Origin: a virus
Direction: 5' to 3' (one strand)
DNA: 64,000 nt
IMG/VR virus record: IMGVR_UViG_3300024259_002152
Coordinates: 286,867 to 350,866 of that record
A program made the translations under genes and the position numbers. This document shows positions 15,421-51,150 of the stretch, one piece after another (the stretch's first letter is position 1; each line of letters starts with the position of its first letter). The notes beneath the pieces are model-generated. The model ran no database searches. It was not told where the DNA came from and worked only from the letters and a program-made list of their open reading frames with translations.

Positions 15421-15657
15421 ATGACATGGAAATCTATAAAAGGTGTAAAACCCCCTTCTTTGAAAAGAGTATGGATATCCTATTATATAGATGGGATTTT
15501 AACTAAACAATATCAAACTTATGCTAAAGCTGTAGGAAAAGATCCTCATGGAGATATTTTTTGGCATGATTTTATGACTGGCAAAGTTCTTGATAATAGT
15601 AGAATTACAGTGTCTCATTGGATGGCAATTCCTGATAATCCAATTCTTAATTTATGA
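15421..15657 (+). CDS. hypothetical protein
   Basis: 78-aa ORF. Confidence 0.4.
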   Translation: MTWKSIKGVKPPSLKRVWISYYIDGILTKQYQTYAKAVGKDPHGDIFWHDFMTGKVLDNSRITVSHWMAIPDNPILNL

Positions 15658-16988
15658 TGATTAGTAGTCGTAACTCACAATATTTTTTTGAAAGGTTTGG
15701 TATCATGGCGAAGAGTAGTAAATCACGTAGGAAAAAAGGCGGGTCTGCCCCTGTAACTCCTAGGCAGACAATTGTTCACGAAATCTCTCAAGCAACTAAT
15801 GAGACAATCGTTCCCGAAAAAATGAGAACCCCAAAAATCTCTCATTTTTTTATCGATGTCGTGAAGAAAGTTCAAAAAGGGGTGGCTTATTATTCGGGGG
15901 ATATGAGTTTGGCTGAGTTAGCAGCTTTGACTCATGTGGATAATTACGATGGGGAGTGTGCGGATGTGGCAGGTAAGGGTCAAAGAGCATTGTGCGAAAC
16001 GAGAGGTAAGCAATTTATGAATTTTATTGCTGACCGAGACAATCTATGTTTTATGGAGATCCTTCTTAATGAACGTGAAAAAGAGATAACATTCACGTCT
16101 CTAAAACAAATGGGAATTTCTGTTCCTCAATATGACAAATTGTCAGCTATGCATGGGGTTCTTGAGATTCCTATTTCTGTTAGATTGTATGTCTATGATG
16201 GGCAAACAAGACGGTTTGGTTATTTAAGTTTGCTTCATTTTGATCTAGACATGTTGGGAACAGATGCTTATAAGAGTTTTAAACATATGAGAGTTCCTTT
16301 CTGTTTATGTCAGGTATCTGCTGGTCAAGAAACAACTTTGTTTCTTCATCACAATAAGCAAACTTCAGTGCCTAATGATCATAAGGCAATGGTTTCTTGG
16401 CATGCAAATAAATCATCAAGTCAGGTAAAGACTGATAGTTATTCCGAGAAAACACGTTCCGTCATTGCTGGTATGACATTCATGATGGATAGAGATAGAA
16501 CTAATCCATGGTATGGAAGAATTGGTATGCCCGATCTTCCTAAGGAAGAAAATAAGCTACGCTTGGGAACACAGGGCAGCTTTAATACAGGACTGAAACG
16601 TTTTGTTGGATGGTTGAATAACCAATATTGGAGTCCTGAAACTTCTTACGAGGAAAAGAGTCAGGACTTGAAAGAAATATGCACCGTATTCTGGAGATCA
16701 GTGCAAAAAGTTTGCCCCAAGATATGGAGAACTCCTGAAGATTATATTCAGTTAAAATCTTTTGGAATTGCAACTTTAAGTTTGCTGATGCATACTCTGT
16801 ATATCGATTTTTTCGATAGAGATATCGAATGGACTATTGATAACATTCATAAGCATTTGAAGAAGAGTAAAATTATTACAACTCCTAAAATGTGGGAATG
16901 TGGCGGAGAACTCTCCAAAAGGGGAGGTAATTACAAATCTCTTCAATCTCTTGAGCGGGATATATATGACCAGATCAGAAGGAATTAG
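15654..16988 (+). CDS. DGQHR-like (DndB/ParB-fold) domain protein, putative
   Basis: VYDGQTRRFGY resembles DGQHR/DGQQR motif of DndB-like proteins; 444 aa. Confidence 0.35.
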   Translation: MMISSRNSQYFFERFGIMAKSSKSRRKKGGSAPVTPRQTIVHEISQATNETIVPEKMRTPKISHFFIDVVKKVQKGVAYYSGDMSLAELAALTHVDNYDGECADVAGKGQRALCETRGKQFMNFIADRDNLCFMEILLNEREKEITFTSLKQMGISVPQYDKLSAMHGVLEIPISVRLYVYDGQTRRFGYLSLLHFDLDMLGTDAYKSFKHMRVPFCLCQVSAGQETTLFLHHNKQTSVPNDHKAMVSWHANKSSSQVKTDSYSEKTRSVIAGMTFMMDRDRTNPWYGRIGMPDLPKEENKLRLGTQGSFNTGLKRFVGWLNNQYWSPETSYEEKSQDLKEICTVFWRSVQKVCPKIWRTPEDYIQLKSFGIATLSLLMHTLYIDFFDRDIEWTIDNIHKHLKKSKIITTPKMWECGGELSKRGGNYKSLQSLERDIYDQIRRN

Positions 16989-23096: not shown

Positions 23097-23538
23097 AAAA
23101 ACGCCCCTAAAAAATGAAACAGCAAAAGCATGGGACAAAAGCGTAAAAAGAGCCATGGCTGTCCTAGAAAAAACAGCAAAGAAGCGAGCGTTTGATTGCT
23201 CCCATACTGCTGATGGAAAAATCTTAAAAATAGGACTGAAGGTTTATAGTATCGATGATCCCACTATTCAATTGGTTATTTCGAATATTGAAGATGAGAT
23301 TACTCGTAGAGGAAAAAGAGTAACCCTAACTAGTAAAGAACAACAATCTTCTAAACAATATTGTAGTAAATTATTTGTTAATCAGGCAAAAGCTGTTGAT
23401 GCTTGTATTATAGATATAGAACAAGCACGACGTGCTATACTTAGGGACGCTCAAGAATCCCTCGATAGGTTAGATGCTGACAATATGCTTAAAAAATTAA
23501 AAAGGCAACGTAAAAAATTAGAAAAAACGAAAGGTTAA
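23065..23538 (+). CDS. hypothetical protein
   Basis: 157-aa ORF. Confidence 0.4.
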   Translation: MAIFLRIMMPKKTPLKNETAKAWDKSVKRAMAVLEKTAKKRAFDCSHTADGKILKIGLKVYSIDDPTIQLVISNIEDEITRRGKRVTLTSKEQQSSKQYCSKLFVNQAKAVDACIIDIEQARRAILRDAQESLDRLDADNMLKKLKRQRKKLEKTKG

Positions 23539-23540
23539 CA

Positions 23541-23831
23541 ATGAAAGATCAAATGATAATTAATGAATTTTTAGCAAAAATCAGGGATGCAAAGCTTAAT
23601 CAGCCAGAAGCAATTGCTATGGCAGGTATGTTTATTGCAGCGGCTATTGATAGACAGACAGAATTGCAAAAAATAAGTCTTGAAATACAAATGAAAATGT
23701 CTGGCTCGGCTACTGATATGTTTGAGAAAATGAGTAGATCAGTAGATAATATGAACGAAGGGGACGAATGGAAAAACGGTCGAGATGATGATGATGGTTA
23801 TGACTCTAACACGGGTTCATTTGAATGTTGA
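23541..23831 (+). CDS. hypothetical protein
   Basis: 96-aa ORF. Confidence 0.4.
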   Translation: MKDQMIINEFLAKIRDAKLNQPEAIAMAGMFIAAAIDRQTELQKISLEIQMKMSGSATDMFEKMSRSVDNMNEGDEWKNGRDDDDGYDSNTGSFEC

Positions 23832-23946
23832 TATGGAAAAATATAATCTTTCAATACTAACTGTGATAGCCATACTGGTAGCAATCTGGGCAATTATGAT
23901 TATAGATATTTTTGCTTAAACGATAAAAATATTAAGGAGTAACATT

Positions 23947-24177
23947 ATGATTATAGGTTCGTGTCATACTAATTTAGACGATTACGATAGGGAAGAATGG
24001 CCTACACAATTTGTTGCTGTTCCAAGAGAAGGAGAATGGGTAGAGTCTAAAAATAGAAAAATTCTTAAGGTTGTTAAAGTTACACATGTTGTGGTGAAAA
24101 AAAATATTTATGGCGGAGAATGTGAACAAGGTTATCCGCAAATACGAGTAGAATTGCACAAACCATCAGGTGGGTAG
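23947..24177 (+). CDS. hypothetical protein
   Basis: 76-aa ORF. Confidence 0.4.
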   Translation: MIIGSCHTNLDDYDREEWPTQFVAVPREGEWVESKNRKILKVVKVTHVVVKKNIYGGECEQGYPQIRVELHKPSGG

Positions 24178-24189
24178 AAAGGATGAATA

Positions 24190-24453
24190 ATGGGTAGGTG
24201 GATAGATACATTAAAAAAATTGCCAGAATCAAAGTCATTTTGGGCATTATATATGGTGGGCTTTGGAATCTGTCTTTCTTTGGCTTTAATCTCTGATATT
24301 ATCCCCGAGGAAAGTAGAGATGAATGGGGACGTACCTCTTGCGCTTATCCTATATTTCAGGTGGCTTTAGTATTAATTGCGAGTGTTCATTTTCTCGCGG
24401 CAGTGGTATTTTTGGTAGCATTTATAGTGGATAAAATAGAAAATATACCCTAA
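24190..24453 (+). CDS. hypothetical membrane protein
   Basis: two TM helices. Confidence 0.4.
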   Translation: MGRWIDTLKKLPESKSFWALYMVGFGICLSLALISDIIPEESRDEWGRTSCAYPIFQVALVLIASVHFLAAVVFLVAFIVDKIENIP

Positions 24454-24725
24454 TGGAAGTAAAAGTAAAATTAATTGTTCCTGATGGTTTGCATATGAGG
24501 CCATCTATGATGGTTGCTGATTTGGCTAATACTTTTGAGAGCCAGATTGAAATAAGCAAAAATGGAATAAAAGTAGATGGTAAAAGCATTATGGATTTAA
24601 CTATGCTCGCAGCAGTGGTGAACGAAGAATTAACAATCACTGCTAAAGGAAAAGATGAGCAAGAAGCTATAATAGCTCTTGAAAAATTAATTAGTAGTGA
24701 TTTTGATAACTATTTAGAGAAATAA
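24453..24725 (+). CDS. ptsH-like: HPr-like phosphocarrier protein
   Basis: GLHMRPSMMV (HPr His15 loop GLHARPA), GKSIMDL (Ser46 region), 90 aa typical HPr length. Confidence 0.7.
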   Translation: MEVKVKLIVPDGLHMRPSMMVADLANTFESQIEISKNGIKVDGKSIMDLTMLAAVVNEELTITAKGKDEQEAIIALEKLISSDFDNYLEK

Positions 24726-24742
24726 GAATGGGAGAATAAATA

Positions 24743-25009
24743 ATGGGCGAAGGAACGAAAATAACTAAGGAAGAAATGTTAATAGAAGAGATACGGAATG
24801 TAGTAGCTAATTTTGAAAAAGACTCCGCAATAGCTAAAGGAATAGCCAGGGATAGGGCTGAGAGAGTTGCTGAACTTATAAGTTCTACCAGCGAAGAAGG
24901 GATAAAAAAAAGAGACTCAGCACACATGGACTTTCAACGTTGGAGAGAAAGGTCAGAAGTTTTTGCACAAGCGGCAAAAGAATTAAAAAAGATACTAATA
25001 CCACATTAA
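24743..25009 (+). CDS. hypothetical protein
   Basis: 88-aa ORF. Confidence 0.4.
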   Translation: MGEGTKITKEEMLIEEIRNVVANFEKDSAIAKGIARDRAERVAELISSTSEEGIKKRDSAHMDFQRWRERSEVFAQAAKELKKILIPH

Positions 25010-25024
25010 GTAAGGATATAAAAA

Positions 25025-25630
25025 ATGTATGAAAAATTTACCGATAGGGCAAAAAGGGTATTAGCACTAGCCAATCAAACTGCACAAGGATGGAACCACG
25101 AGTATATTGGGACTGAACATATTCTTATGGGTTTAATTAAGGAAGGAAGTGGTATAGGATGCAATGTCCTAAAACAGTTTAATATTAATCTAGATCATGC
25201 CAGAAAAAAGATTGAAGAAATTGTTCAGACAGGTCCCGACATAGTTAGTATGGGCAAACTGCCGATGACTCCGAGAGGAGAGAAGATCATTCGTCTAGCA
25301 ATAGATTGTGCTAAAAAAATGAATTGCAATTATGTTGGAACAGAACATTTAATGCACGGGTTGCTTGAAGAAAAAGACGGTGTGGCATCCCATGTTTTGA
25401 TGGATTTATCACTCACTTTGGAAAAATATGAGAAAAATCTAGAATTTACACTAGGACCCAACACCAGGGAAAACGGATGTAAAAATTGTGTTAGTTATGA
25501 AGTATGTGTGATAGTTAAACATATAAATAAAACTCCATTGCTTGTTATCTCATCAAATCTTAATGATGTTCGAAAAGAAATGGAGAAGGTAGTCGCGAGT
25601 TCCTGCAAATGTTATAAGGAAAAAGAATGA
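25025..25630 (+). CDS. Clp N-terminal (ClpC/ClpA N-domain) double-repeat protein, stand-alone
   Basis: two repeats FTDRAKRVLALA...YIGTEHILMGL and MTPRGEKIIRLA...YVGTEHLMHGL; Cys-rich tail. Confidence 0.7.
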   Translation: MYEKFTDRAKRVLALANQTAQGWNHEYIGTEHILMGLIKEGSGIGCNVLKQFNINLDHARKKIEEIVQTGPDIVSMGKLPMTPRGEKIIRLAIDCAKKMNCNYVGTEHLMHGLLEEKDGVASHVLMDLSLTLEKYEKNLEFTLGPNTRENGCKNCVSYEVCVIVKHINKTPLLVISSNLNDVRKEMEKVVASSCKCYKEKE

Positions 25631-25806
25631 TGAAAAAGGGTTTTTCTCTTATAGAATTAATGGTCGTCGTTATAATTGTGATAATTCTGCTATGTTTGGT
25701 AGTGAAAGCAGGATGGTATATGGCAATTGGACCAATTTTTAGAAACATAATACCACTATTAATCGGTGGTTTTGTAGGGTATGTTGTTGGAAAGAAAAAT
25801 AGATAG
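25627..25806 (+). CDS. prepilin-like (type IV pilin N-terminal motif) small membrane protein
   Basis: MMKKGFSLIELMVVV = class III signal (G|FxxxE); 59 aa; not in ORF track (<60 aa). Confidence 0.45.
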   Translation: MMKKGFSLIELMVVVIIVIILLCLVVKAGWYMAIGPIFRNIIPLLIGGFVGYVVGKKNR

Positions 25807-25883
25807 GAAATTTATACTTAACTCTAAAACAAAAGTCTGAAACTCCTATGTTCTTTCAAAAGTGAAAGGCATGCCAACATGAT

Positions 25884-25923
25884 ACATAACTCCTTGCTTA
25901 TAAAGGAGTTATGTATTTTTTTT
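25884..25923 (+). terminator. rho-independent terminator
   Basis: ACATAACTCCTT-loop-AAGGAGTTATGT-T8. Confidence 0.65.
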
Positions 25924-25993
25924 ATATTGTGATTGTTTTTATCTCCCAAGTGATTATAATAATTTTTGAAAGTGATAATTTTGTGGAAGAAAA

Positions 25994-26740
25994 ATGATGC
26001 CAATTTTGGACGATTATATAGCAGAAACAGAGTTTCTAAAATCAAAAGAAACTGATGAAACAGGAGGCAAAGAGAATGCTATTTGCGTAATAGCTGTTTC
26101 TGCCACTGGAGATGCTCTGGTGATTACTACTATTAATGCAAAACAAGCTGCATGGTATTATGATGACTATCTACAAGATGGGATGCCTTGTCTTGATGAA
26201 GAACCTGGTATTTATATTATTGAATTTGCAGTAGAAGAAAAAAGAGATTACTGGGGAGAATGTGATTCATGGTTAGAATATAAGAATATTATAAAATACA
26301 AAGTCATCATTAATGATAAAAGAAATTCACATGATAAGAATATAACATATGCAAATGATGGCATACTAGTAGATGGTAATGACAATTTTGGCTCTGAATA
26401 TCCTCGTTGTTTGTTTGTGGTTACAGATAGTGGTATGGGTTTTGTCCTTGATATCTTGAATGAAGATAAAGCTTATAAAAGTATTATTGAAGAAATTACG
26501 TGGTATATGGAAGATATTGATAATGCTGATCCCATAATATGCTGTGAAGGCATATATATAGCAACATGTTCTATTGTTGGAGATATGGTTAATCTGCTAG
26601 ATCGAGATGAAAATGAAGATATTAAATTGACAAATATAGAACAAGTAGAACTCATACCCGAAAAAGATGATTCTCCAAAGTCAGAAACATTCATACGAAA
26701 GGAACAAGAATGGCGGACGAACAGGCTCCTGAAGAAATAA
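25994..26740 (+). CDS. hypothetical acidic protein
   Basis: 248-aa ORF. Confidence 0.45.
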   Translation: MMPILDDYIAETEFLKSKETDETGGKENAICVIAVSATGDALVITTINAKQAAWYYDDYLQDGMPCLDEEPGIYIIEFAVEEKRDYWGECDSWLEYKNIIKYKVIINDKRNSHDKNITYANDGILVDGNDNFGSEYPRCLFVVTDSGMGFVLDILNEDKAYKSIIEEITWYMEDIDNADPIICCEGIYIATCSIVGDMVNLLDRDENEDIKLTNIEQVELIPEKDDSPKSETFIRKEQEWRTNRLLKK

Positions 26741-26925
26741 CTATTCAACTATGGTGGAATTCAGGCGGAGGAATGTCGGTAAGAAGAGACTGTCTTGACC
26801 CAGATCACCCTGAACATACCTATAATTATATATTAAGAGAGTTTGGAGTTAGACCCGAACAGTATGGAATCGAAAAACCAAAAAATTATATGGAAACATG
26901 CCCCTCATGCGGTTGTAGATTTTGA
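26710..26925 (+). CDS. hypothetical protein
   Basis: 71-aa ORF, CPSCGC. Confidence 0.35.
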   Translation: MADEQAPEEITIQLWWNSGGGMSVRRDCLDPDHPEHTYNYILREFGVRPEQYGIEKPKNYMETCPSCGCRF

Positions 26926-27239
26926 GGAATATTATGATAGAATTAATACTAAAAATTCTTTTCAGTATACTTGTAATTGGAGCATTTGTGTGGTCATCCC
27001 TTAAGGCTTATTTCGCCTCTAAAGCATATTTTACACGAATTAACCAAATTCGAATTGAACGACGAAAAGATGCTGAAGAAATAATAGCACAAATAGATGT
27101 TCTTATAAATCAACAAAATGAGATTCTCGAAGAGATAAAAACTCTCAAAACTGAGCAAAACCAATCTCTAAATTTAACAAATATTAATGAGATATATGAG
27201 GAAGCCATTAATGACGACAAAAAAGAAAAAGAAGATTAA
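26922..27239 (+). CDS. membrane-anchored coiled-coil protein
   Basis: TM then coiled coil. Confidence 0.4.
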   Translation: MRNIMIELILKILFSILVIGAFVWSSLKAYFASKAYFTRINQIRIERRKDAEEIIAQIDVLINQQNEILEEIKTLKTEQNQSLNLTNINEIYEEAINDDKKEKED

Positions 27240-27471
27240 AAACTGTTTAGATTGTAGTTGTCATGAAATTATTGATGATCGAGATCCTCATGACTCGTTT
27301 TGTAGTGATGATATAGCAGTAGTATGCACAATAACCCAAAATCCTAACTGCAAACCAAAATCTAAATATCTAGCAAGTAGAAGTAAATTTCATATAGTAG
27401 CTTGTGCTTGTAGACCTTATAATGCGAAAAAAGAAGCAACAGTGCCCGATTGGTGCCCAAAAAACAAATAA
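27187..27471 (+). CDS. Cys-rich hypothetical protein
   Basis: 94-aa ORF. Confidence 0.35.
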   Translation: MRYMRKPLMTTKKKKKIKNCLDCSCHEIIDDRDPHDSFCSDDIAVVCTITQNPNCKPKSKYLASRSKFHIVACACRPYNAKKEATVPDWCPKNK

Positions 27472-27481
27472 GGAATTGTCC

Positions 27482-28417
27482 ATGGCAAATGTAGTAATGA
27501 TTGTAGGATATCCCGCAGCAGGAAAATCAGCGATAGCACAAGGATATATAGACCATGGATATACCATTCTAAATAGAGATACAGAGGGAGGAACTATCTC
27601 TGCCCTTGTGCCTAAGATGGTAAAACTTATTAGACAATATACAGACGTTGTCCTAGATAATACTTTCCCTACCAAACAAGTTAGAAAACAATTCATAGAA
27701 GCATGTAAAGATAATAATACTCCTATCTATTGTAATTGGGTTAATTCTTCTATAGAAGAAGCTCAGTTTAATGCCTGTCAAAGAATGATAAAGACAAGGG
27801 GCAAACTTCTCTCTTCAGAAGAGATTAAAAAAGAAAAAAGTCCTAATATGTTCCCTCCTATGGTCCAATTCAAATACCGTAAAGAGTTTGAAGAACCATC
27901 AGAAAAGGAGGGTTTTGGTATGGTGACTATAACAGAATTTGAAAGAAGATTTCCCCCTAATTGGAAGAATAAAGCCCTATTCCTTGACTATGATGGAACA
28001 CTTAGAACTACAAAAAGCGATAAGAAATGGCCTACCAAACCCAATGACATTCAAATACTTCCTAATCGAAGAGCCGTCCTTGATTACTATAAATCTCAAG
28101 GATATATTCTGTTGGGAGTTAGTAATCAATCGGGAATAAGAAAAGATAATCCAACCGAAGAACAAGCAATAGTTTGCTTCGATAAAACTAATACTATGCT
28201 TGGACATAAGATAGATTATAAGTATTGCCCCCATAGACCAGCTCCCATTAGCTGCTATTGTAGAAAACCTATGCCAGGAATGGCAATAGAATTTTTCCAT
28301 AAATATAAACTAGATCCTACTCAGTGCATTATGGTGGGAGATATGACCTCTGATGAAACGTTTGCTAAGAGATCCCATATGCAGTTTGTTCATGCTGATG
28401 AATTTTTTAAGTCATAG
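27482..28417 (+). CDS. pnk: polynucleotide 5'-kinase/3'-phosphatase (T4 Pnk-like)
   Basis: Walker A GYPAAGKS (kinase) + HAD phosphatase LDYDGTL, GVSNQSG, MVGDMTSDE; ATG 27482 behind AAGGA. Confidence 0.75.
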   Translation: MANVVMIVGYPAAGKSAIAQGYIDHGYTILNRDTEGGTISALVPKMVKLIRQYTDVVLDNTFPTKQVRKQFIEACKDNNTPIYCNWVNSSIEEAQFNACQRMIKTRGKLLSSEEIKKEKSPNMFPPMVQFKYRKEFEEPSEKEGFGMVTITEFERRFPPNWKNKALFLDYDGTLRTTKSDKKWPTKPNDIQILPNRRAVLDYYKSQGYILLGVSNQSGIRKDNPTEEQAIVCFDKTNTMLGHKIDYKYCPHRPAPISCYCRKPMPGMAIEFFHKYKLDPTQCIMVGDMTSDETFAKRSHMQFVHADEFFKS

Positions 28418-28429
28418 AACGGAGATGAA

Positions 28430-28654
28430 ATGACGACAGGAACAGCCAGAAAGTTTTGGAGTTTAGATGGGTTTGTGGCTATTATCTTTACTATTTTTAC
28501 CATTAGTGCTCTGCTCCGTGGAAGTATCCTAGGTGCCATGTTAATGGGTATATTCTCCTATTGGTGGATAAAAAGAGTATTAGCAAAACCCACGATAATC
28601 AGACGTAGAGGTGGGTATTCTCAGAATCACGGACCAAGGGATTTAGACCTATGA
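28430..28654 (+). CDS. small membrane protein
   Basis: two TM helices. Confidence 0.35.
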   Translation: MTTGTARKFWSLDGFVAIIFTIFTISALLRGSILGAMLMGIFSYWWIKRVLAKPTIIRRRGGYSQNHGPRDLDL

Positions 28655-29295
28655 AAAAACTTGCATCAGATGTAAGAGTCGGAGTAGTTTCAGAAGTGAG
28701 AAGATTCTCTATTTCGGAAAATGGAGCAATTATTTCAAAAGCGAAAGTGAGAGACAACAAAGATGGCAAACCTGTCTATCTGTTTGGTCTTAGAACTAAT
28801 AAATCTCATAGAAGACGATATTGTGCTACAGAACTTTTGAATAGTATTATAAAAACGTATTCTGACAGAGGAATAACCCTAAAGGTATTCTCTGAACATG
28901 GTGGTCCTTCTAACAATACCTTGATGAATATCTATAGGAAGTTTGGATTCAAAAGAAAAGGCAAAACTAACGTTATGTATGTGTCTCCTCCCCGAAAATG
29001 GGAAGAGGGAGATAGAACGAGAATCAAATGCCCTAATTGTGGTAACTGTATGACTATTACTCCTATGCCTTATTATAGATATTATAGAGATGCTAGGGAA
29101 GATATTTGTGAAATAACAAGCGATTATGATCCATGTGCTATGCAATGTAAAAAATGTGAATTGTCATATGCTGGAGGATGCCTTGTAAAATATAAAGGCT
29201 TTTCTACAAACCAATGGTCACCAATACTACCACTTAAAGAATGGATAGATGATATTAACCAAGGGAAAGGTAAGAATAGGAATGGTTATGGCTAA
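28651..29295 (+). CDS. GNAT-like acetyltransferase with C-terminal zinc ribbon, putative
   Basis: NTLMNIYRKFGFKRKG GNAT motif A-like; CPNCGNC...CKKCE. Confidence 0.35.
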   Translation: MKKLASDVRVGVVSEVRRFSISENGAIISKAKVRDNKDGKPVYLFGLRTNKSHRRRYCATELLNSIIKTYSDRGITLKVFSEHGGPSNNTLMNIYRKFGFKRKGKTNVMYVSPPRKWEEGDRTRIKCPNCGNCMTITPMPYYRYYRDAREDICEITSDYDPCAMQCKKCELSYAGGCLVKYKGFSTNQWSPILPLKEWIDDINQGKGKNRNGYG

Positions 29296-30855: not shown

Positions 30856-31743
30856 ATGGAACTAATAGTAGAAACAGATATAGGAAGAGATCCTGATGAT
30901 TTCTTTACCCTCTGCTACCTAATCTCAGCAGGGGTGCAAATAAGGGCTATTACTGTCTCTCCTGGAGATCTAGATCAAGTAGCGGTAGTTAAATTTTTAC
31001 TTAAAGAAGTAGGTCTAACTATACCAGTAGGAGTAGGTAGACTAAATAGAATTAAATCATCAGTAGGAGGAGTTCATACCGAACTACTAAGAAAATATAA
31101 ATTTCCATCTGTTTTTCATGATGATGGTTTCGGACCTATAGTAATAAGAGAAACATTTAATAGATATAGAAATGCAGAACTACTCTGTATAGGACCTCTT
31201 TTGAGCGTAGGAGAATATCTTTCACCTCACTCTTCCCAAAAAATATTCTTTGTTAAAAGAGCAACTATGCAAGGAGGTTTTATAGGATATGATATACATG
31301 GTGTAAAAGTCCCAGAATTAGATAAATTTAAAGGACTTACAACATGCTTAACTTTTAACCTCGGAGGAGATAATGAAGGAGCTATGACGTATATCTCCTC
31401 TAAAATGATTAGAGAACGTAATTGGATAGGAAAAAATATCTGCCATACTATCGAATATGATGAAAATGTTCATAATTTTATCCTGTCCATCAAACCCCAT
31501 GATAGAGCAGGAGAATTATTGAGAGAAGGCATGGGCATGTATCTGGCAAAACATAAATCTAAAAAATTCCATGATCCAACAGCAGCAGTGTGTATGCTTC
31601 ATCCAGAAATAGCTACATGGACAAAAGGTAAAATGTATTATGATAGAGGGAAGTGGGGAGCTACTCTTAATGAAAATGGAGATAATATAGCTATTGATGT
31701 AGATAGATCACAATTATGGAATTTTATCGCGAAAGGAGAATAA
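30856..31743 (+). CDS. inosine-uridine-preferring nucleoside hydrolase family protein
   Basis: N-terminal ETDIGRDPDDFF (DxDxxxDD) signature. Confidence 0.65.
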   Translation: MELIVETDIGRDPDDFFTLCYLISAGVQIRAITVSPGDLDQVAVVKFLLKEVGLTIPVGVGRLNRIKSSVGGVHTELLRKYKFPSVFHDDGFGPIVIRETFNRYRNAELLCIGPLLSVGEYLSPHSSQKIFFVKRATMQGGFIGYDIHGVKVPELDKFKGLTTCLTFNLGGDNEGAMTYISSKMIRERNWIGKNICHTIEYDENVHNFILSIKPHDRAGELLREGMGMYLAKHKSKKFHDPTAAVCMLHPEIATWTKGKMYYDRGKWGATLNENGDNIAIDVDRSQLWNFIAKGE

Positions 31744-46948: not shown

Positions 46949-47455
46949 ATGCATAGAAGACTTCCAATAGGAAAACTAATAGGAGGATCTATTTATGTTC
47001 ATAGGGACTATGTAGATCGTGTAGTTCCTGGGGATATTTTCCGAGAAGCGAAGAAAATTGGACATATTAAAGATTTTCATGAATGGTATCCTCAATGGAC
47101 AATAGTCAAATGGAACAAATATAAAGAGATGGTCTCATTTGTTTATTGTCCTTATTTTGATAGACAATTTGAGCCAGGGATTCATCATGTAGTTACTGTT
47201 GATTTAAGGACTAGGACTAGTCAAATAAGGTGTTATAGGGGTATTAAGAATCGTCCTATTTATCATTATAAATGGCTTATGGTTGGTGTTGGTTATAGGA
47301 AATTTCAAGTAAGTCAATGTATGATGAGGAGTTATGAGATTGAAAGAGTTCTAAAGAAATACAATATTAATAGATCAAAAATTGGTTATAGGAGATATTG
47401 GGATGATGTAGTTATTCCTTTAATTCAGAAAGAGAGGATTCCAGATGGTAGATAA
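46949..47455 (+). CDS. hypothetical protein
   Basis: 168-aa ORF. Confidence 0.4.
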   Translation: MHRRLPIGKLIGGSIYVHRDYVDRVVPGDIFREAKKIGHIKDFHEWYPQWTIVKWNKYKEMVSFVYCPYFDRQFEPGIHHVVTVDLRTRTSQIRCYRGIKNRPIYHYKWLMVGVGYRKFQVSQCMMRSYEIERVLKKYNINRSKIGYRRYWDDVVIPLIQKERIPDGR

Positions 47456-47690
47456 AGAATCAAAGATGATAAATACTATGTTAGTATATAGTATTAAGTG
47501 TTTTAAGTGTGGAATTCTTGAGGAAGAGATGGTAAAAGCAGGTCCAATAAAGTTTTGTAAGAAATGTTTTGGGGAAGAGTTTAAGGATTGTGTATCTCCG
47601 AAAGGACAGATATATTCTGGCTCTAAGGTATATAAAGAATGGATAGGTAAATATAGAATGCATATGAATGCATTAACTCATGATAGATAA
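47445..47690 (+). CDS. zinc-ribbon protein
   Basis: CFKCG...CKKCF. Confidence 0.35.
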   Translation: MVDKESKMINTMLVYSIKCFKCGILEEEMVKAGPIKFCKKCFGEEFKDCVSPKGQIYSGSKVYKEWIGKYRMHMNALTHDR

Positions 47691-47717
47691 ATGTAAACCT
47701 TTTGTTGTAGGAGAATT

Positions 47718-47897
47718 ATGATGGCTATGGATCATTATGGTAACACGGTAGATGTAGGTGACACTGTAAGAAAGGTCGGTTACAGTGATGAGTATACTGT
47801 AATTGATACAGAGTATGGAGGAGAAATGCTCAGTTTGAGTGGGGAGAATTGGGTAGAAAATAATGTTCGTGTTCAGGATGTGATGAAAATAGGTTAA
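47718..47897 (+). CDS. hypothetical small protein
   Basis: 59-aa ORF behind GGAG. Confidence 0.3.
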   Translation: MMAMDHYGNTVDVGDTVRKVGYSDEYTVIDTEYGGEMLSLSGENWVENNVRVQDVMKIG

Positions 47898-47912
47898 TTT
47901 AAGCGGGTGTAA

Positions 47913-47983
47913 TCTCCATAAGTGTATTGGTCGCACGTGACCCTTCCAAGGTTGAAGGCTCAGTTCGATTCTGAGATGGAGAA
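47913..47983 (+). tRNA. tRNA-Gly(TCC)
   Basis: loop CTTCCAA. Confidence 0.65.
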
Positions 47984-48074
47984 TTTATTTTGGCTATATG
48001 CAAAAATAAATAAAGGTATATAGCATGTTTCTCCGAATATATTAATAGTTAATGATATATTTTGGAGAAATAAA

Positions 48075-48659
48075 ATGAGAAAAAGAACAAGTCCAATATG
48101 GACAATATCTAAAGATAAGCTAGAAAGGATTGTTAAAAATAGTGATAGTCTCGCTAAAGTCTTAAAACAAATTAATTTAGATCCATATGGTAGCGGTAGC
48201 CGTTATCGATCTTTGAAAGAAAGATTAAAAATAGATAGTATTGATTACTCTCATATACGGTTGGGATCTTTCTCTAATAGTGGTAGAAATTTTGATAGTA
48301 AGGCAATTTCTTTAAAAGAAATTATGGTGGAAAATTCTACTTATAGTAGAAATCATCTTAAGCGAAGACTACTAGAAAATAATATATTAGAAAATTGTTG
48401 TGCCATATGTGGTCAAGAACCCACTTGGAAAAATATAAAATTAGTAATGGTGTTAGATCATATTAATGGTGTTAGAAATGATAACAGATTAGAGAATTTG
48501 AGATTATTATGTCCTAATTGCAATAGTCAACAGAAAACTTTTGCAGGAAAATGTAATAAGAGACCTCTTCCTGTATGCAAAAATTGCGGTAAAGAGGTAT
48601 CTAGAAGATCAAAAACTAAATTATGTAAAAATTGTTATGTAAATAGGAGAATAACATGA
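48075..48659 (+). CDS. HNH homing endonuclease
   Basis: LDHINGVRNDNRLENLRLLCPNCN. Confidence 0.7.
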   Translation: MRKRTSPIWTISKDKLERIVKNSDSLAKVLKQINLDPYGSGSRYRSLKERLKIDSIDYSHIRLGSFSNSGRNFDSKAISLKEIMVENSTYSRNHLKRRLLENNILENCCAICGQEPTWKNIKLVMVLDHINGVRNDNRLENLRLLCPNCNSQQKTFAGKCNKRPLPVCKNCGKEVSRRSKTKLCKNCYVNRRIT

Positions 48660-48862
48660 TAATTACTCTTGATGAAAATACGATGATAAATACTAATTTC
48701 ATACAATATGTGGATAAAAAAGATGATCAAACAGTTGTTATAACAATGGCAGATAGTAAGAGATATGAAAAAAAAGAAACAATGGAACAGGTTAAAAAAT
48801 GGTTATTACATTATGAACAACATCCCCCTGTTACTCATAATATAAAGATAGTTGATAAATAA
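48656..48862 (+). CDS. hypothetical protein
   Basis: 68-aa ORF. Confidence 0.35.
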   Translation: MIITLDENTMINTNFIQYVDKKDDQTVVITMADSKRYEKKETMEQVKKWLLHYEQHPPVTHNIKIVDK

Positions 48863-48870
48863 GATTTTTT

Positions 48871-48942
48871 GCAGCTATGGTATAACGGATATTACGTGAC
48901 CTTGCCAAGGTCAAAATGTGAGTTCGATTCTCACTAGTTGCT
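48871..48942 (+). tRNA. tRNA-Gly(GCC)
   Basis: loop TTGCCAA. Confidence 0.7.
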
Positions 48943-48947
48943 TACAA

Positions 48948-49021
48948 GCCCAGGTAGCCCAAATGGCAGAGGCACATGCCTTAGGAGCATGGTGATGGTG
49001 GTTCGAATCCACTTCTGGGTA
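48948..49021 (+). tRNA. tRNA-Leu(TAG), type-I-like (short variable arm)
   Basis: loop CTTAGGA; 11-nt D loop. Confidence 0.5.
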
Positions 49022-49067
49022 TTTATTAGTGTTTTAGAAATAAGTAGCACCGAATCGGAGTAATATT

Positions 49068-49304
49068 ATGGATGTTGTAATGCTTTTACTTAGTACTCTT
49101 TCTATTATAATTGGTATATATTGTATAATAGTGAGTTTTGTTCCAATTTTAGGTATTGCTTGGGGTTTTGTACCATCTATTATTGGAATAGTATTAGGAG
49201 CTATTGCTGGTAGTACAGCAGGAGTAGTTCTCAATATAATAGCTATTGTTATTATGATTGTTTGGAATCTTATTTGTATTTTGTTTTTAGCTAAGAATGG
49301 TTAA
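49068..49304 (+). CDS. small membrane protein
   Basis: three TM helices. Confidence 0.4.
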   Translation: MDVVMLLLSTLSIIIGIYCIIVSFVPILGIAWGFVPSIIGIVLGAIAGSTAGVVLNIIAIVIMIVWNLICILFLAKNG

Positions 49305-49318
49305 AAAAACTGTTTTTT

Positions 49319-49393
49319 ACTCCTGTAGCTCAATTGGATTAGAGCATCTCCCTTCTAAGGAGAAAGTTAGGGGTTCGAGTCCTCTCAGGAGTG
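49319..49393 (+). tRNA. tRNA-Arg(TCT)
   Basis: loop CTTCTAA. Confidence 0.7.
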
Positions 49394-49603
49394 TTTTTCT
49401 CTATTTTTCACTTTTCCCGAAAAATATAAATCTTTATTACAAAGGAAGTTATAGAGAATTTTTAATATTTATAACAGGAAAATAGTGAATTTACTTGATT
49501 ATTCTTTCACTTTTGACTATATTATACATAGTCATATGACAAGTGTAGTAGTTAGTAAATGTTAACCTAAGTAGTATGTGGCAGAGCCACGGAGGTAACA
49601 ACA

Positions 49604-50026
49604 ATGCAAAGTGTTCAAGTAGGTAAGGAAGCCTCACGAACTGGTAGTGAGTCTTATATCCAGACCTACCAGAACCTGTTGAGGCAAAAAGAGCGTATTG
49701 ACAGGAATCTGATGAAGCTTCAGAGCAAATTATTAAGGGCTATGGCTGGTCAAAAGCCAGTCAGTAGTCCTGCGAAATATGTTTCGAGGCTTCCCAACAC
49801 GACCATTTTGGTCAGAGCTATTAGAGAGTGTATGACTCCGAATAAAGAGATGACTATGAGTGACATTCTAGAATCTCTTCATAAAAAGGATTTGTATCAC
49901 ACTCAGAGCCAGTATTTCTATACGATGGTTAATAATAAACTTAACCGTGATAGTCTTATTCATAAGGTTCGTCGCGGTGTCTTTATGTTTAAACCTCGCA
50001 GAAAAAAAGGAAGTGCTGTGGCATAA
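49604..50026 (+). CDS. hypothetical basic protein
   Basis: 140-aa ORF; followed by terminator. Confidence 0.45.
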   Translation: MQSVQVGKEASRTGSESYIQTYQNLLRQKERIDRNLMKLQSKLLRAMAGQKPVSSPAKYVSRLPNTTILVRAIRECMTPNKEMTMSDILESLHKKDLYHTQSQYFYTMVNNKLNRDSLIHKVRRGVFMFKPRRKKGSAVA

Positions 50027-50051
50027 AAATCTAAAAACATTTAAGTTTTTA

Positions 50052-50094
50052 ATGCCCAGTCTTCTTAGGAAACAGGATGATTGGGCATTTTTTT
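50052..50094 (+). terminator. rho-independent terminator
   Basis: ATGCCCAGTC-17 nt-GATTGGGCAT-T7. Confidence 0.6.
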
Positions 50095-50126
50095 ATACTT
50101 TTTTCCTAAAATTGGGAAAAAAAGAC

Positions 50127-50154
50127 TTGCAAAAGTAGGGAAAGTGTGTAGAAT
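50127..50154 (+). promoter_or_regulatory. sigma70-type promoter TTGCAA-N16-TAGAAT
   Basis: hexamers. Confidence 0.5.
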
Positions 50155-50165
50155 ACTGGGGTCAT

Positions 50166-50483
50166 GTGAGAGGCATGTATATTTTACACCTATGGATAAT
50201 GGAGATTATTGTGGAGCAAAGCGAAAGGACCAAGAACACCTACAGATTAAGATGTGAGAAGATAGTCAACGAATCATGGTCAAAAGTTGAGGAGCATGTA
50301 AATGAGATTATGAAAGCATTAGAGAAAGATATTCTTGATGAGAGAGATATTTTACTTTTAAGGCTTGCTTCTGGGGCTTTTGTTCAGAGAGTTCAGTTAA
50401 ATCAGTTAGAAAGTGATGAGCTTTTTCAGATAGATCCTAACGAGGGTCGTCGAGATAAAGATCTTGATCTTGATGTTTGTTAA
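50166..50483 (+). CDS. hypothetical protein
   Basis: 105-aa ORF behind TTGCAA-N16-TAGAAT promoter. Confidence 0.45.
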   Translation: MRGMYILHLWIMEIIVEQSERTKNTYRLRCEKIVNESWSKVEEHVNEIMKALEKDILDERDILLLRLASGAFVQRVQLNQLESDELFQIDPNEGRRDKDLDLDVC

Positions 50484-50557
50484 GCTCCTGTAGTCTAATA
50501 GGATAGGCACTGGTTTCCTAAACCAGATATATGCAGGTTCGAGTCCTGTCAGGAGTA
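50484..50557 (+). tRNA. tRNA-Arg(CCT)
   Basis: loop TTCCTAA. Confidence 0.65.
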
Positions 50558-50560
50558 TAA

Positions 50561-50635
50561 GTCCCTATCGCCTAATTGGATATGGCACTCCGCTACGGAC
50601 GGAGAATAGTGTGGGTTCGAATCCTACTAGGGATA
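50561..50635 (+). tRNA. tRNA-Arg(ACG)
   Basis: loop CTACGGA. Confidence 0.7.
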
Positions 50636-50640
50636 TTGCT

Positions 50641-50712
50641 AGGTCGTTGGTGAAATTGGTATCATTGGACTCTCCAAAAGTTCGGTTCAGGGTTCGAGTC
50701 CCTGGCGACCTG
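50641..50712 (+). tRNA. tRNA-Trp(CCA)
   Basis: loop CTCCAAA. Confidence 0.7.
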
Positions 50713-50718
50713 TTAAAA

Positions 50719-50765
50719 TTCCAGACAATGAGTTTGTAGAAATGGTAGTAGTATAGCACCGAATC
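50719..50765 (+). promoter_or_regulatory. promoter box + TATAGCACCGAAT
   Basis: motif. Confidence 0.5.
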
Positions 50766-50786
50766 CTTTTTTAGCGGAAAAAATAA

Positions 50787-50981
50787 ATGACAATTACAGA
50801 GCTGTATAAAAAATTAGGAAATATGGTAAAACATGGCTTAGGAGATGAGTCAGTAAAGATATCTATTCCTTTTAGAGATGGAATAGGTATTCATTATGAA
50901 GATATTGTGAATGTTACTACTCATGATGGGATAGTAGATATACATACTACTGTGTCAGAATATGATGATGTGAAAAAATGA
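50787..50981 (+). CDS. hypothetical protein
   Basis: 64-aa ORF. Confidence 0.35.
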   Translation: MTITELYKKLGNMVKHGLGDESVKISIPFRDGIGIHYEDIVNVTTHDGIVDIHTTVSEYDDVKK

Positions 50982-50987
50982 ATAGAA

Positions 50988-51061
50988 GCCCACGTAGACC
51001 AATCGGCAGAGTCATAGCATTTAAAATGCTAGTAGTGGTGGTTCGAGTCCACTCGTGGGTA
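50988..51061 (+). tRNA. tRNA-Leu(TAA), type-I-like
   Basis: loop TTTAAAA, short variable arm. Confidence 0.55.
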
Positions 51062-51077
51062 TTAAAATACTAGATAG

Positions 51078-51150
51078 GCCCAGGTGACCCAATGGCAGAG
51101 GTGAACGTTTCAAAAGCGTTTTGTTGGTGGTTCGAGTCCACTTCTGGGTA
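51078..51150 (+). tRNA. tRNA-Leu(CAA), type-I-like
   Basis: loop TTCAAAA, short variable arm. Confidence 0.55.

What the first reader, a model, noticed from the sequence alone, without database searches (positions are those of the whole stretch)
25025..25806. Stand-alone ClpC-type N-domain protein followed by a prepilin-like peptide
- 25025-25630 encodes the duplicated Clp_N repeat (FTDRAKRVLALA...GTEHILMGL; MTPRGEKIIRLA...GTEHLMHGL) without any AAA+ module.
- It could sequester adaptor proteins or phospho-arginine-tagged substrates, or interfere with host ClpCP. Host Clp is used by some phages and defence systems.
- A 59-aa ORF overlapping its stop begins KKGFSLIELMVVV, a textbook type IV prepilin cleavage/methylation motif.
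- Together with the HPr homologue upstream, this points to a Firmicutes-type host and a block of host-mimic regulators.
Basis: partly seen in the sequence, partly recalled or inferred. Interest (0 to 1): 0.65.

Follow-up and report, generated by a model that had tools for sequence, protein, structure and literature searches.

The report
Phage copy of ClpC's receptor domain
A huge marine phage carries a copy of only the docking domain of its host's ClpC protein-degradation machine, with a small cysteine-rich tail, followed by a tiny membrane protein that starts like a pilin; both genes are real and conserved, but they are not an obligate pair and the host looks like a planctomycete, not a Firmicute.

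Summary
ORF 25025-25630 (201 aa) is a double Clp_N repeat (Pfam 1.2e-29), colinear with ClpC from Met1. It has a ClpC1-NTD fold (TM 0.95) and no AAA+ module. ORF 25627-25806 (59 aa) overlaps its stop (ATGA) and passes the curated N_methyl and TIGR02532 cut-offs.

- **Host:** the domain is 55-63% identical to Planctomycetota ClpC, against 39-43% for Firmicute or mycobacterial ClpC. The host is probably a planctomycete.
- **Not a one-off:** 24 other IMG/VR viral contigs, mycobacteriophage Myrna gp251 and PHROG 35667 are stand-alone ClpC N-domains with varied tails.
- **The tail:** this clade's tail has conserved Cys/His positions, so it is probably a zinc-binding knuckle.
- **The small protein:** it is under purifying selection but has only four relatives among 1.84 billion proteins. 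Gly-1 is invariant, Glu5 is lost in two, and there is no pilin head.
- **The pairing:** Clp_N precedes the small gene in three of five lineages and is absent in two, where HPr does.

Best reading (inferred): a host-derived ClpC-receptor decoy or sensor, next to an independent small membrane protein that may be a prepilin-peptidase substrate. This is a new variant of known kinds, of moderate interest.

The parts
24453..24725 (+). HPr (phosphocarrier) homologue, 90 aa. It is the first recognisable gene of the same tightly packed + strand gene run. It is the most constant upstream neighbour of the small membrane protein in related phages.
   Evidence: Pfam PTS-HPr at E 4.1e-23 and TIGR01003 at 1.3e-21. 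The GLHMRP (His15) and KSI(M/L/V) (Ser46) motifs are kept in the window, L012, L083 and L167.
24743..25009 (+). 88-aa ORF of unknown function between HPr and Clp_N. It is found only in the lineages that also have Clp_N.
   Evidence: It is 36% identical to L012 3698-3991 and gives tblastn E 8e-11. It has no Pfam, PHROG or PADLOC hit. It is absent from L083 and L167.
25025..25462 (+). ClpC-type N-terminal domain, residues 1-146. It has two Clp_N repeats and is colinear with cellular ClpC from the initiator Met.
   Evidence: Pfam Clp_N at 1.2e-29. Matches to Mtb ClpC1 NTD chains in the PDB at E about 1e-35, over residues 1-136. The AF2 model has pLDDT about 90. Foldseek against 6pbs gives TM 0.95 and rmsd 1.2 A. 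T6/E31 and T82/E107 are kept.
25463..25630 (+). Clade-specific C-terminal tail, residues 147-201, plus the stop codon. Conserved positions are C152, C155, C161, H166 (Cys in one homologue) and C194. It is a probable small zinc-binding module.
   Evidence: The same pattern is seen in L012 and L166. There is no Pfam hit. It is not significantly related to the ClpC linker or D1 start. The AF2 model is below pLDDT 50 here.
25627..25806 (+). 59-aa small hydrophobic protein. The leader MMKKG is followed by FSLIE and a 21-residue hydrophobic helix (a class III signal-like N-terminus, about 25627-25704). A conserved second hydrophobic half follows: W30-Y31, G35-P36-I37, N40, I42-P43-L44, I46-G47, G51-Y52.
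   Evidence: N_methyl and TIGR02532 scores are above their cut-offs. pS is 0.80-0.89 against pN of 0.25, and dN/dS is 0.21. Four homologues are known. AF2 predicts one long helix over residues 8-57 at pLDDT 82.
25881..25927 (+). Intrinsic-terminator-like hairpin with a T-run that closes the HPr-Clp_N-small-protein gene run.
   Evidence: It is the only terminator-like site on either strand in 23500-27500. A similar hairpin, followed by a promoter-like site matching 11 of 12 positions, lies at the same place in L012.
25994..26740 (+). 248-aa ORF of unknown function. It is the conserved downstream neighbour and probably starts a new transcription unit.
   Evidence: It is 40-45% identical to homologues in L012, L083 and L167. 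It has no Pfam, PHROG or PDB match.

Best explanation
Two separate genes lie side by side in an accessory region of a huge marine phage.

**Gene 1 (25025-25630): a free copy of the ClpC receptor domain**
- It is a host-derived copy of the N-terminal receptor domain of ClpC. It was probably captured from a Planctomycetota-type clpC, and a short Cys/His tail that is probably zinc-binding was added.
- It has no ATPase, so it cannot unfold or deliver anything to ClpP.
- It keeps the fold and the Thr/Glu pairs of both phospho-arginine pockets. Its most likely role in the infected cell is therefore as a free, competing copy of the ClpC docking site.
- As a decoy it would bind whatever normally docks there: tagged or unfolded substrates, or adaptor proteins. 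That would withhold them from ClpCP, or let the phage sense them.
- The tail would supply a second contact or oligomerisation surface.

**Gene 2 (25627-25806): an independent small inner-membrane protein**
- Its N-terminus has the form of a class III (prepilin) signal.
- It is probably inserted in the inner membrane, and possibly cut after Gly5 by the host prepilin peptidase.
- It has no head domain, and Glu5 is not conserved in the family. It is therefore not a fibre-forming pilin.
- It may interfere with the host pilus or type II secretion machinery, or have an unrelated membrane role.

**What is shown and what is inferred**
- Shown: gene reality, domain identity, fold, conservation, synteny and taxonomic affinity.
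- Inferred: ligand binding, decoy action, zinc binding, signal processing and the membrane target.
For: **Domain identity and fold**
- Clp_N identity and fold are established.
- There is no AAA+ module, ClpP or pilus machinery in the window.

**Conservation of the N-domain**
- The pArg-pocket residues T6/E31/H32 and T82/E107/H108 are kept. T6, H32 and T106-E107-H108 are at least 90% conserved across 27 phage stand-alone N-domains.
- Mutating the equivalent Thr (ClpC2 T99A) abolishes pArg binding (PMC13345244). Glu32 and Glu106 lie in the two pArg pockets (PMC12583610).
- Purifying selection acts on the N-domain: pS 0.73-0.89 against pN 0.34-0.45.

**Recurrent capture by phages that tracks the host**
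- 24 further IMG/VR viral contigs carry stand-alone N-domains of 199-501 aa with unrelated tails.
- Mycobacteriophage Myrna gp251 scores 250 bits against the Mtb ClpC1 NTD and is visibly near-identical in the printed alignment.
- PHROG 35667 matches at E 1.4e-33.
- The nearest cellular sequences to the window protein are Planctomycetota ClpC.

**Precedents**
- Mycobacterial ClpC2, a free ClpC1-NTD homologue, sponges NTD ligands and binds pArg (PMC10030653, PMC13345244).
- Phage SPO1 Gp53 targets the ClpC N-domain (PMC6873191).

**The tail**
- Cys/His positions are conserved in three lineages, with a His-to-Cys swap at one position.

**The small protein**
- It passes the curated thresholds.
- dN/dS is 0.21, with synonymous sites saturated.
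- Gly-1 is invariant in all five homologues. Gly-1 is the residue critical for prepilin processing, and Glu5 is dispensable for it (PMC4471445).
Against: - No binding, processing or expression data exist.
- The host is inferred from one gene only. The HPr search gave no usable taxon names.
- No McsB-type kinase gene recurs next to clpC in 61 Planctomycetota loci. A phospho-arginine pathway in the presumed host is therefore unproven.
- In the window copy the positions matching Mtb ClpC1 F80, K85 and E89 are M81, E86 and R90. The hydrophobic-groove surface thus differs from cellular ClpC.
- The tail model has low confidence, and no known zinc-finger family matches it.
- The second half of the small protein is only moderately hydrophobic. 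AF2 gives one straight helix, so the topology is open.
- Two homologues have lost Glu5 and Phe1, so the pilin-like motif may not be the selected feature.
- Only a 64-kb window of a genome of about 350 kb was seen. A partner ATPase or peptidase could lie elsewhere.
Confidence: 0.45

Rival explanations
1. Ligand-responsive regulator in the manner of mycobacterial ClpC2. The N-domain would sense phospho-arginine or another ClpC ligand, and the Cys/His tail would bind DNA or mediate oligomerisation. The protein would then switch phage or host transcription when proteotoxic stress signals rise.
For: ClpC2 is a free ClpC1-NTD homologue whose repressor activity is released by pArg and by NTD-binding antibiotics (PMC13345244, PMC10030653). 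The phage protein also combines an NTD with a second small module. Cys/His knuckles often bind nucleic acid (general knowledge).
Against: The domain order is reversed relative to ClpC2, which has its extra domain at the N-terminus. Similarity to ClpC2 chains is far weaker than to ClpC1 (E 1e-10 to 1e-12 against 1e-35). No DNA-binding family matches the tail. No operator-like repeat was looked for or seen.
Confidence: 0.15
2. Trans-acting modulator of the host ClpC assembly state. The free N-domain would dock on ClpC M-domains or AAA1 through the same surfaces that the resident NTD uses to hold the resting state. This would lock ClpC off, or unleash it to degrade host proteins.
For: The NTD stabilises the ClpC resting state through contacts made by its pArg pockets and K85 (PMC12583610). 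The phage copy keeps the pockets.
Against: The window copy has Glu at the K85-equivalent position (E86). That would weaken the contact in question. There is no evidence that an NTD acts in trans. The varied tails among phage copies are not explained.
Confidence: 0.1
3. The small protein is a 'poison prepilin'. It would be processed by the host prepilin peptidase and would enter or block the type IV pilus or type II secretion platform. Because it lacks a head it could not be built into a fibre, so it would shut the machine and prevent superinfection.
For: A class III signal is present, and Gly-1 is invariant in five homologues. Gly-1 is the residue critical for processing (PMC4471445). Several PHROG families of short phage proteins share this N-terminus. 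That small hydrophobic phage proteins such as PfsE block pili is my recollection and was not checked here.
Against: Glu5 and Phe1 are lost in two homologues. No pilus or secretion genes lie nearby. The most conserved part is the second half, not the pilin motif.
Confidence: 0.2
4. The small protein is a holin-like or otherwise generic two-helix membrane peptide. On this reading its likeness to a prepilin signal is incidental.
For: It is 59 aa with two hydrophobic stretches and basic ends. That this is the format of class II holins is general knowledge. The pilin-specific Glu5 is not conserved in the family.
Against: No endolysin or spanin is adjacent; the only weak spanin-like hit is at 26922 (E 0.004). 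It sits in an early or accessory-looking block with HPr. The strict motif is expected by chance about 0.01 times per window.
Confidence: 0.15
5. The Clp_N gene is a decaying 5' fragment of a captured clpC with no function of its own.
For: It begins at the ClpC start codon. BLAST extends the alignment weakly through the tail into the ClpC linker and D1 start.
Against: Intact ORFs exist in three diverged lineages, with saturated synonymous sites against pN of 0.34-0.45. The Cys/His pattern in the tail is conserved. Tested alone, the tail is not significantly related to the ClpC linker or D1 start: hhalign E 0.08, and empirical p of 0.035 and 0.117.
Confidence: 0.04

Closest known systems
N-terminal domain of ClpC / ClpC1 (Clp_N, PF02861), especially Planctomycetota ClpC
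   Same: It has a double Clp_N repeat starting at Met1. It is 55-63% identical to Planctomycetota ClpC over residues 1-145. The fold superposes on the Mtb ClpC1 NTD at 1.1-1.2 A. The GTEH motifs and the Thr residues of both pArg pockets are kept.
   Different: There are no AAA+ D1/D2 modules, M-domain or ClpP-binding loop. After residue 146 there is a 55-residue Cys/His tail in place of the linker. Several surface positions are changed: M81, E86 and R90 at the Mtb F80, K85 and E89 positions.
Phage stand-alone Clp_N proteins (PHROG 35667; mycobacteriophage Myrna gp251 and Phabba; 24 further IMG/VR contigs)
   Same: The architecture is the same: a host-like ClpC N-domain, then a short non-ATPase tail.
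   Different: The tails are unrelated. Only L012 and L166 share the Cys/His tail, and two others carry an HD_4 domain. All are annotated as unknown function or mis-annotated as 'ATP protease'. None has been studied as far as the searched literature shows.
Mycobacterial ClpC2 (Rv2667-type)
   Same: It is a free homologue of the ClpC1 NTD without an ATPase. It binds NTD ligands (cyclomarin, rufomycin, pArg), acts as a sponge, and carries a second domain (PMC10030653, PMC13345244).
   Different: It is cellular, and its extra domain is N-terminal and binds DNA. Only one pArg site is kept. Sequence similarity is much weaker than to ClpC1.
SPO1 Gp53
   Same: It is a phage factor aimed at the ClpC N-domain interface (PMC6873191).
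   Different: Gp53 mimics an adaptor that binds the NTD. The protein here mimics the NTD itself.
Type IV pilins and pseudopilins (class III signal peptide)
   Same: A basic leader ends in Gly, followed by Phe1, Glu5 and a 21-residue hydrophobic helix. It scores above the PF07963 and TIGR02532 cut-offs.
   Different: The mature length is only about 54 residues, with no alpha-beta head. The second half is hydrophobic. Glu5 is not conserved in the family. No assembly genes lie nearby. It has only four relatives among 1.84 billion representative proteins.

Membership tests
Clp_N / ClpC-type N-terminal domain | Two tandem Clp_N repeats scoring above the Pfam gathering score | tested here: met
   PF02861 at 102.6 bits against a cut-off of 20.7, in 2 stretches.
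Clp_N / ClpC-type N-terminal domain | Pseudo-twofold helical fold of the ClpC NTD | tested here: met
   The AF2 model has pLDDT about 90 for residues 10-140. Foldseek gives TM 0.95 and rmsd 1.2 A to 6pbs, with the top 50 hits all Clp N-domains.
Clp_N / ClpC-type N-terminal domain | Phospho-arginine pocket residues (a Thr and the Glu of GTEH in each repeat) | tested here: met
   T6/E31 and T82/E107 are present. Actual pArg binding cannot be tested with these tools.
Clp/Hsp100 ATPase (ClpC, ClpA, ClpB) | AAA+ D1 and D2 modules with Walker motifs | tested here: not met
   The ORF ends at residue 201. NCBIfam ClpA/B/K models match only over their N-domains and score far below their cut-offs. No AAA_2 or ClpB_D2-small family is found in the window.
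Mycobacterial ClpC2 | N-terminal DNA-binding domain followed by a C-terminal ClpC1-NTD-like domain | tested here: not met
   The NTD is at the N-terminus here. ClpC2 chains match at E 1e-10 to 1e-12, against 1e-35 for ClpC1.
Plant ClpT | Closest similarity to the ClpT1/T2 double Clp-N proteins | tested here: not met
   4y0b matches at E 5.5e-6 only, with 22-25% identity in Foldseek.
Phage stand-alone Clp_N (PHROG 35667) | Profile match, and an architecture of NTD plus a short tail | tested here: met
   phrog_35667 at E 1.4e-33, over residues 1-137. The architecture is shared with 26 phage proteins.
Type IV pilin / pseudopilin | Class III signal: a hydrophilic leader ending in Gly, then about 21 hydrophobic residues | tested here: met
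   The sequence is MMKKG|FSLIELMVVVIIVIILLCLVV. PF07963 scores 23.0 against 21.2 and TIGR02532 scores 24.5 against 16.3. Gly-1 is invariant in 5 homologues.
Type IV pilin / pseudopilin | Glu5 conserved (needed for fibre assembly) | tested here: inconclusive
   It is present in the window, L012 and L083, and replaced by Gly in P0142 and P0143.
Type IV pilin / pseudopilin | Globular alpha-beta head after the alpha1 helix | tested here: not met
   Only about 33 mostly hydrophobic residues follow the first helix. AF2 gives a single helix over residues 8-57.
Type IV pilin / pseudopilin | Cleavage and N-methylation by a prepilin peptidase | not testable with these tools
   This needs co-expression with a prepilin peptidase and mass spectrometry. 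No Peptidase_A24 family is found in the window.
Class II holin | Two transmembrane helices encoded next to an endolysin in a lysis cassette | tested here: inconclusive
   There are two hydrophobic stretches. No lysis gene is adjacent. Membrane permeabilisation was not tested.

The most novel reading that the evidence does not exclude
Phages of unrelated hosts (Planctomycetota, mycobacteria and others) repeatedly capture just the receptor domain of the host's ClpC and fit it with varied tails. These proteins would form a widespread, unstudied class of counter-proteolysis factors. They would blind ClpCP to its degradation tags or adaptors, or redirect them, during infection. In this clade the decoy carries a zinc knuckle. 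It is co-transcribed with HPr and with a headless prepilin-like peptide that jams the host pilus or secretion platform.
Probability: 0.25. Interest if true: 0.65.

Novelty: new variant of a known kind. Interest (0 to 1): 0.42.

Why it matters
ClpC/ClpC1 is a central protease regulator, and in mycobacteria it is an essential drug target whose N-domain is the site of action of several antibiotics.

If phage-encoded free N-domains act as decoys or sensors, they would be natural tools that show which ligands matter at this site. They would also be a new type of phage takeover factor. The idea can be tested directly in a cultivable system, Myrna gp251 in M. smegmatis.

The result also gives a host clue, Planctomycetota, for an uncultured huge marine phage. 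It also defines a very rare family of headless prepilin-like peptides, which could show how phages use or block the prepilin pathway.

For the window itself the result is more modest: two real, conserved accessory genes of inferred function.

Tried and rejected
1. **Tail as a relic of the ClpC linker or D1 start.** BLAST extends through it. The tail alone is not significant: hhalign E 0.08, and shuffle tests against a 71-sequence ClpC profile giving p 0.035 and 0.117. Rejected as unsupported.
2. **Firmicute host.** Rejected.
3. **Clp_N and the small gene as an obligate pair.** Rejected, because L083 and L167/L168 lack Clp_N.
4. **Partner genes in the window.** A search for ClpP, Clp ATPase, prepilin peptidase and pilus ATPase found none among ORFs of at least 90 aa.
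5. **Single-protein scan of IMG/VR.** It found nothing. An alignment-based scan was needed.
6. **Taxonomy from HPr homologues.** No useful names were returned.
7. **Function of orf248, orf88 and the tail.** Pfam, PHROG, PADLOC and PDB sequence searches gave nothing.
8. **McsB-type kinase next to clpC in Planctomycetota loci.** None recurs, and the literature search was empty.
9. **More relatives of the small protein.** Only four were found among 1.84 billion representatives, plus one fragment in JGI metagenomes.
10. **Variation among the six contigs of the same phage.** There were zero differences over 24453-25806, so they carry no population signal.
11. **Literature on phage Clp_N proteins.** No study was found.
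Full report
**Setting**

The window has about 33% G+C, and nearly all ORFs lie on the + strand, with about 85% of the + strand coding. It holds 31 tRNA genes between 41 and 51 kb. The exact Clp_N protein occurs on marine metagenome contigs up to 350,866 bp. The window therefore comes from a huge phage. Six contigs of the same phage are identical over 24453-25806.

**The observation**

- It matches Pfam Clp_N at E 1.2e-29 in two stretches.
- Residues 1-136 align from Met1 to solved ClpC1 and ClpC N-domains at E about 1e-35.
- An AlphaFold model has pLDDT about 90 across the domain.
- The model superposes on the M. tuberculosis ClpC1 NTD with TM 0.95 and rmsd 1.2 A.
- NCBIfam ClpA, ClpB and ClpK models match only over their N-domains.

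There is no ATPase module in the ORF. No Clp ATPase, ClpP, prepilin peptidase or pilus ATPase family appears among 62 other ORFs of at least 90 aa.

ORF 25627-25806 (59 aa) overlaps the Clp_N stop in ATGA.
- It scores above the curated cut-offs of N_methyl (23.0 against 21.2) and TIGR02532 (24.5 against 16.3).
- It is the only such motif in six frames of the window.
- Simulated sequences give 0.01 strict or 0.1 relaxed matches per window.

HPr upstream is confirmed at 4.1e-23.

**Where the N-domain came from**
- Among 5.8 billion proteins, the best non-self hits are N-termini of ClpC at 46-64% identity (mostly 55-62%). Every hit that carries a name is from Planctomycetota.
- A scan of one genome per species returned 80 best loci. 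Nearly all are Phycisphaerae, Planctomycetales, Pirellulales or relatives, at 44-63% identity. That scan was seeded by the motif AQ[GR][WF]NHEY, which is itself planctomycete-typical, so it is biased.
- Solved Firmicute N-domains are 39-40% identical and mycobacterial ones 41-43%.
- A control supports the logic. Mycobacteriophage Myrna gp251 is also a stand-alone N-domain (235 aa). It scores 250 bits against the M. tuberculosis ClpC1 NTD and is visibly near-identical in the printed alignment. Phage copies therefore track their host's ClpC.

The host is thus probably a planctomycete, by inference from one gene. The 'Firmicutes-type host' is not supported. HPr homologues gave no usable taxon names.

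**A recurrent phage theme**

An alignment-seeded scan of IMG/VR found 28 viral loci.
- Apart from one full-length clpC (L013), two duplicate pairs and the close relative L012, 24 distinct contigs encode stand-alone N-domains of 199-501 aa. Most start at the ClpC Met1 and continue into unrelated tails.
- Two of these tails are HD_4 domains, and the rest match no Pfam family.
- PHROG 35667, annotated 'unknown function', matches the window protein at 1.4e-33.
- Across the 27 phage proteins, T6, H32 and T106-E107-H108 are at least 90% conserved.
- Literature searches found no study of these phage proteins.

**The tail**

Residues 147-201 have no Pfam match and are modelled with low confidence. Two relatives share them:
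- L012, from a 297.7-kb viral contig, with a Clp_N 46% identical overall.
- L166, a 661-bp fragment.

C152, C155, C161 and C194 are invariant in all three. H166 is Cys in L166. A His/Cys exchange at a fixed position is typical of a metal ligand, so I infer a small zinc-binding module.

BLAST extends weakly from the N-domain through the tail into the ClpC linker and D1 start. Tested alone, the tail is not significantly related to that region: hhalign E 0.08, and shuffle tests giving p 0.035 and 0.117. I do not claim that origin.

The N-domain is under purifying selection, with pS 0.73-0.89 against pN 0.34-0.45. It is therefore not a decaying fragment.

**The small protein**

Its homologue in L012 is 51% identical, and the one in L083 is 58-59% identical.
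- Synonymous sites are saturated (pS 0.80-0.89) against pN of 0.25.
- dN/dS between L012 and L083 is 0.21. It is a real gene.

An exhaustive HMMER search of 1.84 billion representative proteins found only two further full-length relatives. All other hits cover just the first 23-28 residues. A JGI metagenome scan added only one fragment.

In the five homologues:
- Gly-1 is invariant.
- Phe1 and Glu5 are replaced in two, giving RKGITTIG and RKGTTLIG.
- The best conserved part is the second half: W30, A33, P36-I37, N40, I42-P43-L44, I46-G47, G51-Y52.

According to the pilin review PMC4471445, Gly-1 is critical for processing. Glu5 is dispensable for processing but needed for homopolymer assembly. 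The pattern therefore fits a possible prepilin-peptidase substrate that is not a fibre subunit.

There is no head domain. The first helix is very hydrophobic and the second stretch moderately so. AlphaFold draws a single helix over residues 8-57 at pLDDT 82, which does not settle the topology. Several PHROG families of short phage proteins share this N-terminus, all of unknown function.

**Are the two genes a unit?**

| Lineage | Gene order |
|---|---|
| Window | HPr - orf88 - Clp_N - small - orf248 |
| L012 | same order as the window |
| L166 | ...Clp_N - small |
| L083 | HPr - 43-aa ORF - small - orf248-like - ... - GNAT |
| L167/L168 | HPr - small - orf248-like |

- Clp_N, together with orf88, is present in three of the five lineages and absent from two.
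- HPr is the constant upstream gene in the four lineages with upstream sequence, and an orf248-like gene is the constant downstream neighbour in the same four.
- A terminator-like hairpin follows the small gene in the window (25881-25917). One also follows it in L012, where a promoter-like site matching 11 of 12 positions comes next. The small gene therefore ends the HPr transcription unit.

The adjacency with Clp_N is real and translationally coupled where present, but it is not obligate.

**Mechanism**
- *Shown:* domain identity, fold, lack of an ATPase, conserved pocket residues, selection, recurrence in phages and host affinity.
- *From the literature:* the ClpC NTD binds pArg substrates, adaptors and unfolded segments, and it controls the resting state (PMC12583610). 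The free homologue ClpC2 sponges NTD ligands and binds pArg (PMC10030653, PMC13345244). Phage SPO1 Gp53 targets this interface (PMC6873191).
- *Inferred:* the phage protein competes with host ClpC for NTD ligands, as a decoy or sensor, and the zinc tail adds a second interaction.

Several cautions apply.
- No McsB-type kinase recurs upstream of clpC in 61 Planctomycetota loci, and the literature search was empty.
- The window copy has M81, E86 and R90 at the ClpC1 F80, K85 and E89 positions.
- Only 64 kb of the genome was seen.

Rivals are a ClpC2-like regulator, a trans-modulator of the ClpC assembly state, and, disfavoured, a dead fragment. For the small protein, a pilus or secretion blocker and a generic or holin-like membrane peptide remain open.

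**Verdict**

The N-domain is a new variant (Cys/His tail, planctomycete-type) of a known but unstudied kind, the phage stand-alone ClpC N-domains. The small protein is a very rare, headless, prepilin-like peptide. Interest is moderate. The most useful outcome is the general, testable idea that phages repeatedly capture the ClpC receptor domain.

Noticed in passing
window 58404-59735: A 443-aa ORF with a poly(ADP-ribose) polymerase catalytic domain (1.6e-24) and the PARP regulatory domain (7.2e-08). An ADP-ribosylglycohydrolase (1.2e-38) also lies somewhere among the window's ORFs, but its coordinates were not determined.
   Followed up: partly
window 41039-51150: A cluster of 31 tRNA genes covers most amino acids. 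It includes one ARAGORN call with a two-base anticodon at 42263-42338, and a tRNA-Ile(TAT).
   Followed up: no
window 24453-24725; L012 3425-3685; L083 1577-1858; L167 42-323: The phage HPr homologue keeps both phosphorylation motifs (GLHMRP, KSIM/L/V) in four lineages. It is the constant upstream neighbour of the small membrane protein. Its role in a phage is unexplained.
   Followed up: partly
window 25994-26740: A 248-aa ORF is conserved at 40-45% identity in four phage lineages with many invariant residues. It has no Pfam, PHROG or PDB match.
   Followed up: partly
L020 4001-4984 and L022 3926-4978: Viral contigs encode a ClpC N-domain fused to an HD_4 (RelA/SpoT-type HD) domain.
   Followed up: no
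L006-L011 (for example L006 2152-7508): On bacterial contigs, a 240-aa stand-alone Clp_N protein (P0003) lies directly upstream of a full-length clpC. A Clp_N-ThiD2-TMP-TENI fusion lies on the other strand. These are cellular free N-domain paralogues next to clpC.
   Followed up: no
window 15654-16988, 27404-28417, 28651-29295, 30856-31743, 59804-60610: These ORFs are, in order: a DndB-like protein, a polynucleotide kinase/3'-phosphatase, a GNAT acetyltransferase with a Cys-rich C-terminus, an inosine-uridine nucleoside hydrolase, and a LAGLIDADG endonuclease.
   Followed up: no
P0002 (326 aa, JGI contig of about 2 kb): The best non-self hit is a protein made of two complete ClpC N-domains in tandem (four Clp_N repeats) with no ATPase. 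Its origin is unknown.
   Followed up: no
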